Positions 12,098 through 12,839 of a stretch of DNA of 64,000 nt are shown here, one piece after another. The translations under genes were made by a program, and so were the position numbers. This DNA comes from Rhina ancylostomus (Eukaryota), in assembly GCA_030265395.1 (NCBI GenBank), contig JARFYF010000051.1:18705824-18769823 (forward strand), given 5' to 3'. How positions within the stretch are numbered: position 1 is the stretch's first letter; each line of letters starts with the position of its first letter. Under the pieces are notes generated by a model. It was given only the letters and a program-made list of their open reading frames with translations, was not told where the DNA came from and made no database searches.

Positions 12098-12190
12098 ACC
12101 ACATAGCACACATCATAGAGCTGCTAGGCAATATCCCAAGACACTTTGCTCTTTCTGGGAAATATTCTCGGGAATTCTTCAATCGCAGAG
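12098..12190 (+). CDS. SRPK2: SRPK2 alternative exon A ([31 protein letters not shown]), canonical SRPK2-type
   Basis: Long pyrimidine tract, ctcatag|AC CAC...AGA G|gtagta. 93 nt, phase 1->1. Confidence 0.95.
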
Positions 12191-12746
12191 GTAGTACCTC
12201 TTCTCTTTGAAAGGTCCTGTAACGCAGACAGAAGTGGAGAGAGTTTTCCATGGCTACTGAATAATATGTATTCTCCAGCCTGTTAAGTAAAACAAACGTC
12301 TGCTATGAACAGCAGGAGTACCATGAATTAAATTTTTTTCCATTGAAAATAGATACAGGCTGGATATTTCCTAATTTGTGGTCTGCTGCAACCACTGAAT
12401 GTACACAATGATATGAATGATAGGAACAGACATGGCTAAATGAGATGAATAATGATTCGTAATGCTGCCTCATTTTAAAAATAAATCTTGCCAAATTCCT
12501 TTGAATTTAATTTTTATTAAAATACATTACTTATCAGCATTATTTAGAAATGCTGAATTCCAAAAAGAGAAAATGAAAACAAAAATGCATTTAAAAGATT
12601 CATATTCATGGGAGCCCAAGTTATTATGGGGCTGTTTCAGTGTCAAGGAGGAAACACTCTTGTCTGTACCAGGACTAGTATCACATGATGCATGCATTGT
12701 ACTGATTAAACTGTTTTTGTTTTGCTGGCAATGTTCTTCAATACAG

Positions 12747-12839
12747 ATCACATAGCTTTGATCATTGAACTGCTGGGGAAAATCCCTCGAAAGTTCGCAA
12801 TGTCTGGAAAATATTCCAAGGAGTTTTTCACCAAAAAAG
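12747..12839 (+). CDS. SRPK2: SRPK2 alternative exon B ([31 protein letters not shown]), SRPK1-like homologous exon
   Basis: atacag|AT CAC...AAA G|gtaaca. 93 nt, phase 1->1, open frame, 23/31 aa identical to exon A. Confidence 0.9.

What the first reader, a model, noticed from the sequence alone, without database searches (positions are those of the whole stretch)
12098..12839. Tandem homologous 93-nt exons let SRPK2 swap between an SRPK2/3-type and an SRPK1-type docking-groove segment
Seen: two intact exons of identical length and phase (1->1), 556 nt apart, each with AG/GT sites. They are 23/31 aa identical with many synonymous differences, so this is an old duplication under coding constraint and not an assembly duplicate. 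Known: exon A matches the canonical SRPK2/SRPK3 segment (HIAHI...YSREFFNRR) and exon B resembles SRPK1 ([11 protein letters not shown]...YSKEFFTKK). This segment forms helix alphaG and the start of the MAPK-like insert lining the RS-substrate docking groove. Inference: a mutually exclusive pair older than the SRPK1/2/3 duplications, retained here and resolved differently in the paralogues. Both exons are frame-neutral, so NMD cannot enforce exclusivity and another mechanism is needed. Similar exons may already be annotated in other vertebrates, so novelty is unverified.
Basis: partly seen in the sequence, partly recalled or inferred. Interest (0 to 1): 0.8.

Follow-up and report, generated by a model that had tools for sequence, protein, structure and literature searches.

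The report
Ancient swappable exon pair in SRPK2
A cartilaginous fish's gene for the splicing kinase SRPK2 carries two old, side-by-side versions of one exon, a pair already catalogued in humans, and using the second version would place leucine instead of histidine at the substrate-groove position reported to make the kinase add more phosphates per binding.

Summary
In detail: two intact 93-nt exons of the same phase, 556 nt apart, 23/31 residues identical, in a shark/ray-type SRPK2 next to KMT2E. It is not new: the human pair is event 204 of Martinez Gomez 2021, dated to chordates, and shark and ray gene models already carry exon B. The pair predates the SRPK1/SRPK2 split (independent duplications rejected, AU p = 0.00015 and 0.017). 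But the paralogues did not simply split it: SRPK1 keeps both exons in mammals and teleosts, and in this genome its exon A survives only as a likely relic. Exclusivity is not shown: I could lay no reads, none of the three classic locks applies, and database models include A, B, both and neither. The useful addition is functional. A encodes His and B Leu at the groove position (SRPK2 H601, SRPK1 L568) where His-to-Leu is reported to raise SRPK2 processivity from about five to eight sites. Exon B is thus a natural H601L swap; my 10 searches found no paper saying so. The scan had no earlier SRPK note. Verdict: known event, testable unreported angle.

The parts
8612..8681 (+). Upstream SRPK2 exon (end of alphaF and the loop before alphaG); ends in phase 1, donor GTGAGT
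   Evidence: donor matches 9/9 of the consensus
12008..12097 (+). Acceptor region of exon A: branch-point-like A at 12011 (87 nt upstream), no AG from 12018 to 12095, 88% pyrimidine in the last 50 nt
   Evidence: motif match only, branch point not mapped
12098..12190 (+). Exon A, 93 nt, canonical SRPK2 type; His at the groove position (human SRPK2 H601); weak donor GAG/GTAGTA (5/9)
12191..12746 (+). 556-nt intron between the two exons; 31 AG; branch-point-like A at 12705, 515 nt from A's donor, so no steric block
12747..12839 (+). Exon B, 93 nt, SRPK1 type; Leu at the groove position (human SRPK1 L568); weaker acceptor tract (60% pyrimidine), donor AAG/GTAACA (7/9)
19331..19515 (+). Last coding exon of SRPK2 up to the TAG stop; starts in phase 1

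Best explanation
The two exons are the shark/ray copy of an exon pair, older than the SRPK1/SRPK2 split, that encodes alternative versions of the kinase's docking-groove helix, and choosing B over A likely makes SRPK2 more processive because it puts Leu where A puts His. Shown: anatomy, homology, conservation, age, and the His/Leu difference. Taken from papers: that His-to-Leu at this site raises human SRPK2 from about five to about eight sites on SRSF1. Inferred: that the whole exon B behaves like the point mutant (it changes 7 other residues), that exon choice is set by regulated competition between a strong-acceptor, weak-donor exon A and a weak-acceptor exon B rather than by a hard lock, and that exclusivity is therefore leaky, with A+B and skipped transcripts as by-products or minor forms.
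For: Intact exons with 13 synonymous against 8 replacement differences. Both exons in SRPK2 models from sharks, rays, bichir, paddlefish, gar, teleosts, amphibians, reptiles, birds, monotremes, marsupials and placentals. B-only and A-only models exist side by side in 5 shark species, and human GENCODE has one transcript for each. In stored two-exon proteins (redundant isoforms, not species) the groove residue is His in A in 141 of 141 SRPK2 rows and Leu in B in 140 of 141; mammalian SRPK1 His/Leu 17 of 17. D564 and E571, the groove acids in this exon, are shared by A and B, while L568/H601 at the groove centre differs. H601 to Leu raises processivity from about 5 to 8 sites (a 2021 paper's summary of Long et al. 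2019). No steric, U12 or frame-shift lock.
Against: No RNA evidence of my own: laid nothing. No proteomics support is entered for the human event (empty cell). Among 44 shark/ray models 23 carry both exons, 14 B only, 5 A only, 2 neither (the clusters were reached through A+B representatives, which inflates the first number). Teleost srpk1a keeps both exons with Leu in each (35 of 35 rows), so the pair can be kept without the His/Leu switch. I could not read Long et al. 2019 itself. Lamprey models have only B (12 of 12).
Confidence: 0.6

Rival explanations
1. Exon B works mainly as an add-on cassette: the A+B transcript is a real third isoform in which A forms the groove and B hangs off as an extra basic 31-residue loop beside it, changing activity or partner binding.
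For: A+B models recur from sharks to mouse and in SRPK1 too. Nothing in the intron blocks A-to-B joining. AlphaFold2 of a shark A+B protein keeps A in the core (pLDDT 79-93 over 591-620) and the C-terminal helices at 87-98, with B at 49-59.
Against: B has kept the residues of a buried helix for the whole vertebrate span, which a dangling loop does not need; lamprey uses B alone and B-only shark models outnumber A-only 14 to 5. The phmmer searches rank two-copy proteins first, so A+B is oversampled (119 of 120 rows by the pattern). AlphaFold2 loops out insertions by habit; the B-only control fold could not be run.
Confidence: 0.17
2. The swap is real and either/or, but what selection keeps is something other than processivity: the seven other differences, in the start of the MAP-kinase insert, alter partners, inhibitor binding or stability.
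For: Teleost srpk1a retains two distinct exons without a His/Leu difference. B segments vary most at positions 15-19 between SRPK1 and SRPK2, while A is almost frozen within SRPK2. Martinez Gomez 2021 lists the event without any function.
Against: The His/Leu contrast is the best conserved A/B difference outside teleost srpk1a and is the one position with a reported kinetic effect.
Confidence: 0.2
3. One exon is an assembly duplicate or a dead pseudo-exon.
For: No reads were laid here; the assembly is gappy.
Against: 63/93 nucleotide identity with mostly synonymous differences; exon B is identical in protein to SRPK2 models of 8 other shark and ray species; orthologous human exons are annotated.
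Confidence: 0.02

Closest known systems
Human SRPK2 tandem exon duplication-derived substitution, event 204 (ENST00000489828 / ENST00000477925; Martinez Gomez et al. 2021, PMC8373072, Supplementary Table)
   Same: The orthologous pair: two 93-nt exons, same order, same peptides up to a few residues; dated there to Chordata.
   Different: Here in a cartilaginous fish, intron 556 nt against 373 nt in human. The table gives no function, no proteomics entry and no link to the docking groove.
Human SRPK1 mutually exclusive exon cluster 2487 (Hatje et al. 2017, PMC5740500; accepted by Martinez Gomez 2021 with a common ancestor shared with Styela clava)
   Same: The paralogous pair: an A-type exon with His beside the annotated B-type exon with Leu; the extra exon is strongly tissue-biased, highest in testis.
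   Different: The default is reversed: canonical SRPK1 uses B, canonical mammalian SRPK2 uses A. In this genome SRPK1 has only B plus a likely relic of A.
SRPK2 H601L point mutant (Long et al. 2019 JBC, as summarised in PMC8102418 and PMC11211491)
   Same: Same residue, same change as the A-to-B swap.
   Different: An engineered single change, described as the key fixed difference between SRPK1 and SRPK2; the passages I saw do not mention that splicing can make it. Exon B changes 7 more residues.
Splice isoform separation after gene duplication (Abascal et al. 2015, PMC4494069; e.g. CALU, U2AF1, CACNA1C/1D)
   Same: Paralogues that have kept different ancestral exons: here SRPK3 and a fourth paralogue have one A-side exon and this genome's SRPK1 only B, while SRPK2 keeps both, like their partial class.
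   Different: Not complete and lineage-specific; SRPK is not in that paper's main text or in the 1 of 2 supplementary files that could be searched.

Membership tests
Tandem-duplicated homologous exon substitution (homologous mutually exclusive exons) | Adjacent homologous exons of like length and the same phase | tested here: met
   93 nt each, phase 1-1, 23/31 residues
Tandem-duplicated homologous exon substitution (homologous mutually exclusive exons) | Each exon has its own splice sites and an open frame kept across species | tested here: met
   both exons in SRPK2 models from sharks to mammals
Tandem-duplicated homologous exon substitution (homologous mutually exclusive exons) | Both encode the same element of a folded domain | tested here: met
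   A and B both align to residues 299-328 of SRPK2 2x7g and 291-320 of SRPK1 3beg
Tandem-duplicated homologous exon substitution (homologous mutually exclusive exons) | Substitution isoforms (A only and B only) exist | tested here: met
   As database gene models in 5 shark species and as human GENCODE transcripts; not as reads from this species
Tandem-duplicated homologous exon substitution (homologous mutually exclusive exons) | One and only one exon per transcript | tested here: inconclusive
   No reads laid; A+B and exon-less models are common in a biased sample
Mutually exclusive exons locked by steric hindrance, U2/U12 incompatibility or NMD | Branch point under about 50 nt from the upstream donor, mixed intron types, or length not divisible by three | tested here: not met
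   Nearest-to-acceptor branch motif 515 nt from A's donor, 31 AG in the intron, U2-type GT-AG sites, 93 = 31 codons (criteria)
Complete splice isoform separation after gene duplication | Each paralogue keeps just one, different ancestral exon | tested here: not met
   SRPK2 keeps both; SRPK1 keeps both in mammals and teleosts. Partly true within this genome
Complete splice isoform separation after gene duplication | Exon duplication older than the gene duplication | tested here: met
   B exons of SRPK1, SRPK2 and lamprey on one side of a branch, 85/77; per-gene clades rejected, AU p 0.00015 and 0.017, on 30 columns
SRPK2 orthologues | Closest sequence match and KMT2E as tail-to-tail neighbour | tested here: met
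   Kinase exons 91-98% identical to a ray SRPK2; KMT2E SET exon on the minus strand, E 7e-23 to 5ht6; the human adjacency is recalled, from no call
Processivity switch at SRPK H601/L568 | The exon-B kinase is more processive than the exon-A kinase | not testable with these tools
   Residue identity shown; kinetic effect known only for the point mutant

The most novel reading that the evidence does not exclude
SRPK1 and SRPK2 are not fixed as high- and low-processivity kinases: a chordate-old exon pair lets each take on the other's docking groove by splicing (SRPK2 His to Leu through exon B, SRPK1 Leu to His through exon A), tissue by tissue, so that the kinases which tune SR splicing factors are themselves retuned by a splice choice; a folded A+B form with a spare basic loop may be a third setting.
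Probability: 0.3. Interest if true: 0.62.

Novelty: already known. Interest (0 to 1): 0.35.

Why it matters
The exon pair itself is on record, so the locus is not a discovery. The link to function may matter: the His601/Leu568 difference is presented as the key distinction between the SRPK1 and SRPK2 grooves and as a handle for selective covalent inhibitors. If splicing flips that residue in both genes, paralogue-specific kinetics and drug selectivity become isoform-specific, and a catalogued but unstudied event gains a one-week biochemical test. All solved SRPK2 chains matched here carry A and all SRPK1 chains B, so the swapped forms have no solved structure in that list.

Tried and rejected
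laid nothing. Competing RNA structure: 56 inverted pairs in 11400-13600, two of which pair a site near 11480-11530 with the acceptor regions of A and B; AT-rich sequence, no control and no conservation test, so not used. RBFOX-type TGCATG lies upstream of both exons (11958, 12689; 2 of 6 in 8682-19330); untested. Steric, U12 and NMD locks rejected. B-only control fold and fold search not run, machine busy. An invertebrate two-exon SRPK was not found: 1 of 167 proteins examined had two matching segments (a bichir SRPK2); representatives hold one isoform each, so this is no test of the Chordata date. Unanchored nhmmer for the SRPK1 relic gave only E 1.2. Atlas search of a downstream ORF gave nothing. 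Earlier scan notes: none by sequence, none with all words. Long et al. 2019 is not held.

Full report
1. Observation. The window holds the 3' part of an SRPK gene on the + strand. Exon A (12098-12190) and exon B (12747-12839) are both 93 nt, flanked by AG and GT, in phase 1 at both ends, 556 nt apart. They share 63 of 93 nucleotides; of 30 whole codons 9 are identical, 13 differ synonymously and 8 change the residue, giving 23 of 31 identical residues with the split Asp codon. A, B, A+B and skipping all keep the frame between the exon ending at 8681 and the last exon starting at 19331. The match is far from chance (E about 1e-12 against 0.34 for the next hit), and no third copy was found in 8682-19330.

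2. Identity. Exon B is identical in protein to SRPK2 models of sharks and a ray, and the other kinase exons are 91-98% identical to a ray SRPK2, so the window is most likely from a cartilaginous fish (inference; 2.2 Gb assembly). A KMT2E SET-domain exon lies downstream on the minus strand, the neighbour I recall for human SRPK2.

3. Paralogues in this genome. Searching with B gave 5 matches from 5 candidates: A, B, an SRPK1 exon of B type, an SRPK3-like exon of A type, and a fourth, more divergent paralogue (the fourth is called 'SRPK3' or 'SRPK3-like' in other sharks and rays). None of the three paralogues shows a second intact exon in the flanking introns fetched (N gaps unread, and the SRPK3-like contig is only 5.8 kb). 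The SRPK1 upstream intron does contain a likely relic of exon A, 2.7 kb before B: a pyrimidine tract and CAG, the right phase, an in-frame stop and then indels. It ranks first of 1,932 AG-anchored positions in 29 kb of SRPK intron by peptide score (16.4, next 9.5) and by nucleotide identity (25 of 35, next 21), but an unanchored nhmmer search gives only E 1.2 and shuffle tests 2, 10 and 27 of 200 for the three query exons that hit it; two others did not.

4. Distribution and age. The 120 listed hits (of 1,212) are almost all two-exon proteins, because two matches score higher; that is a bias, but it shows both exons in SRPK2 from sharks to mouse and, in the same order, in teleost srpk1a. Marsupial and placental SRPK1 models also carry an A-type exon (marsupial 5 A+B, 5 B, 3 A, 2 neither of 15; placental 11 A+B, 4 A, 1 neither of 16). 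Lamprey models carry B only (12 of 12). In a tree of 29 distinct segments (4 duplicates dropped, 30 columns) the 14 B segments of SRPK1, SRPK2 and lamprey fall on one side of a branch (85/77; 90% of bootstrap trees); holding SRPK2's A and B together is rejected (AU p 0.00015), as is holding SRPK1's (p 0.017); an A clade is neither shown nor rejected (p 0.22). So the duplication is older than the SRPK1/SRPK2 split. The alignment is short, so finer branching is not resolved.

5. What is already known. Martinez Gomez et al. 2021 (PMC8373072; passages, section 14 and supplement rows seen) list the human SRPK2 pair as event 204, with one GENCODE transcript per exon, last common ancestor Chordata and an empty proteomics cell. 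They accept the SRPK1 counterpart found by Hatje et al. and trace it to a shared ancestor with Styela clava. Hatje et al. 2017 (PMC5740500; passages, section 7, supplement rows seen) give the human SRPK1 A-type exon, with a Gini index of 0.96 and its maximum in testis; SRPK2 has 0 occurrences in their 10 supplementary files. The event, its age and its paralogue are therefore on record.

6. Is it mutually exclusive? Not shown here. No reads could be laid. None of the three classic locks applies: the branch-point-like motif nearest B's acceptor is 515 nt from A's donor, the sites are U2-type, and 93 is a multiple of three (criteria). The anatomy suggests competition instead: A has a strong, long pyrimidine tract (88%) with a branch-like motif 87 nt upstream and a weak donor (5 of 9), B a weaker tract (60%) and a better donor (7 of 9) (simple counts, no trained splice model). 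Database models show every combination: among 44 shark and ray models 23 A+B, 14 B, 5 A, 2 neither; among 15 rodent models 6 A+B, 8 A, 1 neither; among 15 turtle models 13 A+B, 1 B, 1 neither. These clusters were reached through A+B representatives and most are automated predictions whose read support I did not see. B-only outnumbering A-only in sharks, and B alone in lamprey, hints that B is not a minor exon in basal vertebrates (inference from annotation). AlphaFold2 of a shark A+B protein places A in the core (pLDDT 79-93) and leaves B at 49-59 with the rest of the C-lobe at 87-98, so folding may not forbid co-inclusion; without the B-only control this is weak.

7. Likely function. The exon begins at SRPK1 D564; D564 and E571 of helix alphaG bind substrate arginines and are shared by A and B. 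Between them, at +4, is L568 in SRPK1 and H601 in SRPK2, described as the key difference at the centre of the groove. The 2021 iScience paper (PMC8102418, passages seen) states that SRPK1 phosphorylates SRSF1 processively at about eight sites, SRPK2 at about five, and that H601 to Leu raises SRPK2 to eight (citing Long et al. 2019, which I could not open). The numbering checks: the His is residue 594 of the 681-residue mouse protein, 601 of the 688-residue human one. Exon A encodes His and exon B Leu at this place in this genome, in 141 and 140 of 141 stored two-exon SRPK2 rows, and in 17 of 17 mammalian SRPK1 rows. So exon B is a natural H601L, and SRPK1's exon A the reverse. Against a sole role for this residue, teleost srpk1a has Leu in both exons (35 of 35 rows). 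Across 153 single-segment SRPK relatives the position is His 95, Leu 42, Gln 12, Met 4 (167 examined, 13 without a pattern match, 1 with two), so it is an old two-state site.

8. Is the link in print? Ten full-text searches found the two catalogues and the inhibitor papers but none joining the exon pair to H601: 'SRPK2 + His-601' and 'SRPK2 + H601L' gave 0 papers, and the one paper with 'SRPK', 'mutually exclusive exon' and 'docking groove' uses the terms in unrelated passages. A 2023 review has 0 occurrences of 'mutually exclusive' or 'H601'. The library lacks most subscription papers, including Long 2019, whose text or supplement might mention the isoform; one supplementary file of Abascal 2015 could not be searched.

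9. Verdict. Real feature, correctly read, already known as an event. The evolutionary story is mostly right, except that SRPK1 often keeps both exons. The unreported part is the mapping of the swap onto a characterised processivity switch. Novelty: already known. Interest 0.35.

Noticed in passing
L007:2764 downward, minus strand (G000:C53, about 16663763): Likely decayed copy of exon A in the SRPK1 intron of this genome: intact acceptor, in-frame stop at the seventh codon, and a donor-like AAG/GTAACT 36 nt after the acceptor, so it could still splice as a short stop-bearing exon.
   Followed up: partly
L005:1495-1584 (G000:C94): A fourth SRPK paralogue with a short spacer, present in sharks, rays and some teleosts and labelled SRPK3 or SRPK3-like; its segment has His at the groove position but groups with neither A nor B clearly.
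   Followed up: partly
proteins P0445, P0446: Marmot and ground-squirrel SRPK1 models carry the A-type exon, although Hatje et al. call the SRPK1 cluster absent in Glires; the loss may be narrower than stated.
   Followed up: no
proteins P0017, P0074, P0103: Teleost srpk1a exon A has switched from His to Leu at the groove position, so both of its exons carry Leu.
   Followed up: partly
window 28735-64000, minus strand: KMT2E (MLL5), tail to tail with SRPK2: long Pro/His-rich last exon at 28735-30543 and a SET-domain exon near 60745-60927.
   Followed up: partly
window 11476-11534 with 12035-12055 and 12652-12669: Two neighbouring upstream sites are complementary (81% over 21 nt, 83% over 18 nt) to the acceptor regions of exon A and exon B; may be chance, no control or conservation test.
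   Followed up: no
proteins P0141, P0150, P0169, P0181, P0195, P0435: Models lacking both exons occur in SRPK2 and SRPK1 of several groups, including a mouse NP_ record; such a protein would lack helix alphaG.
   Followed up: no
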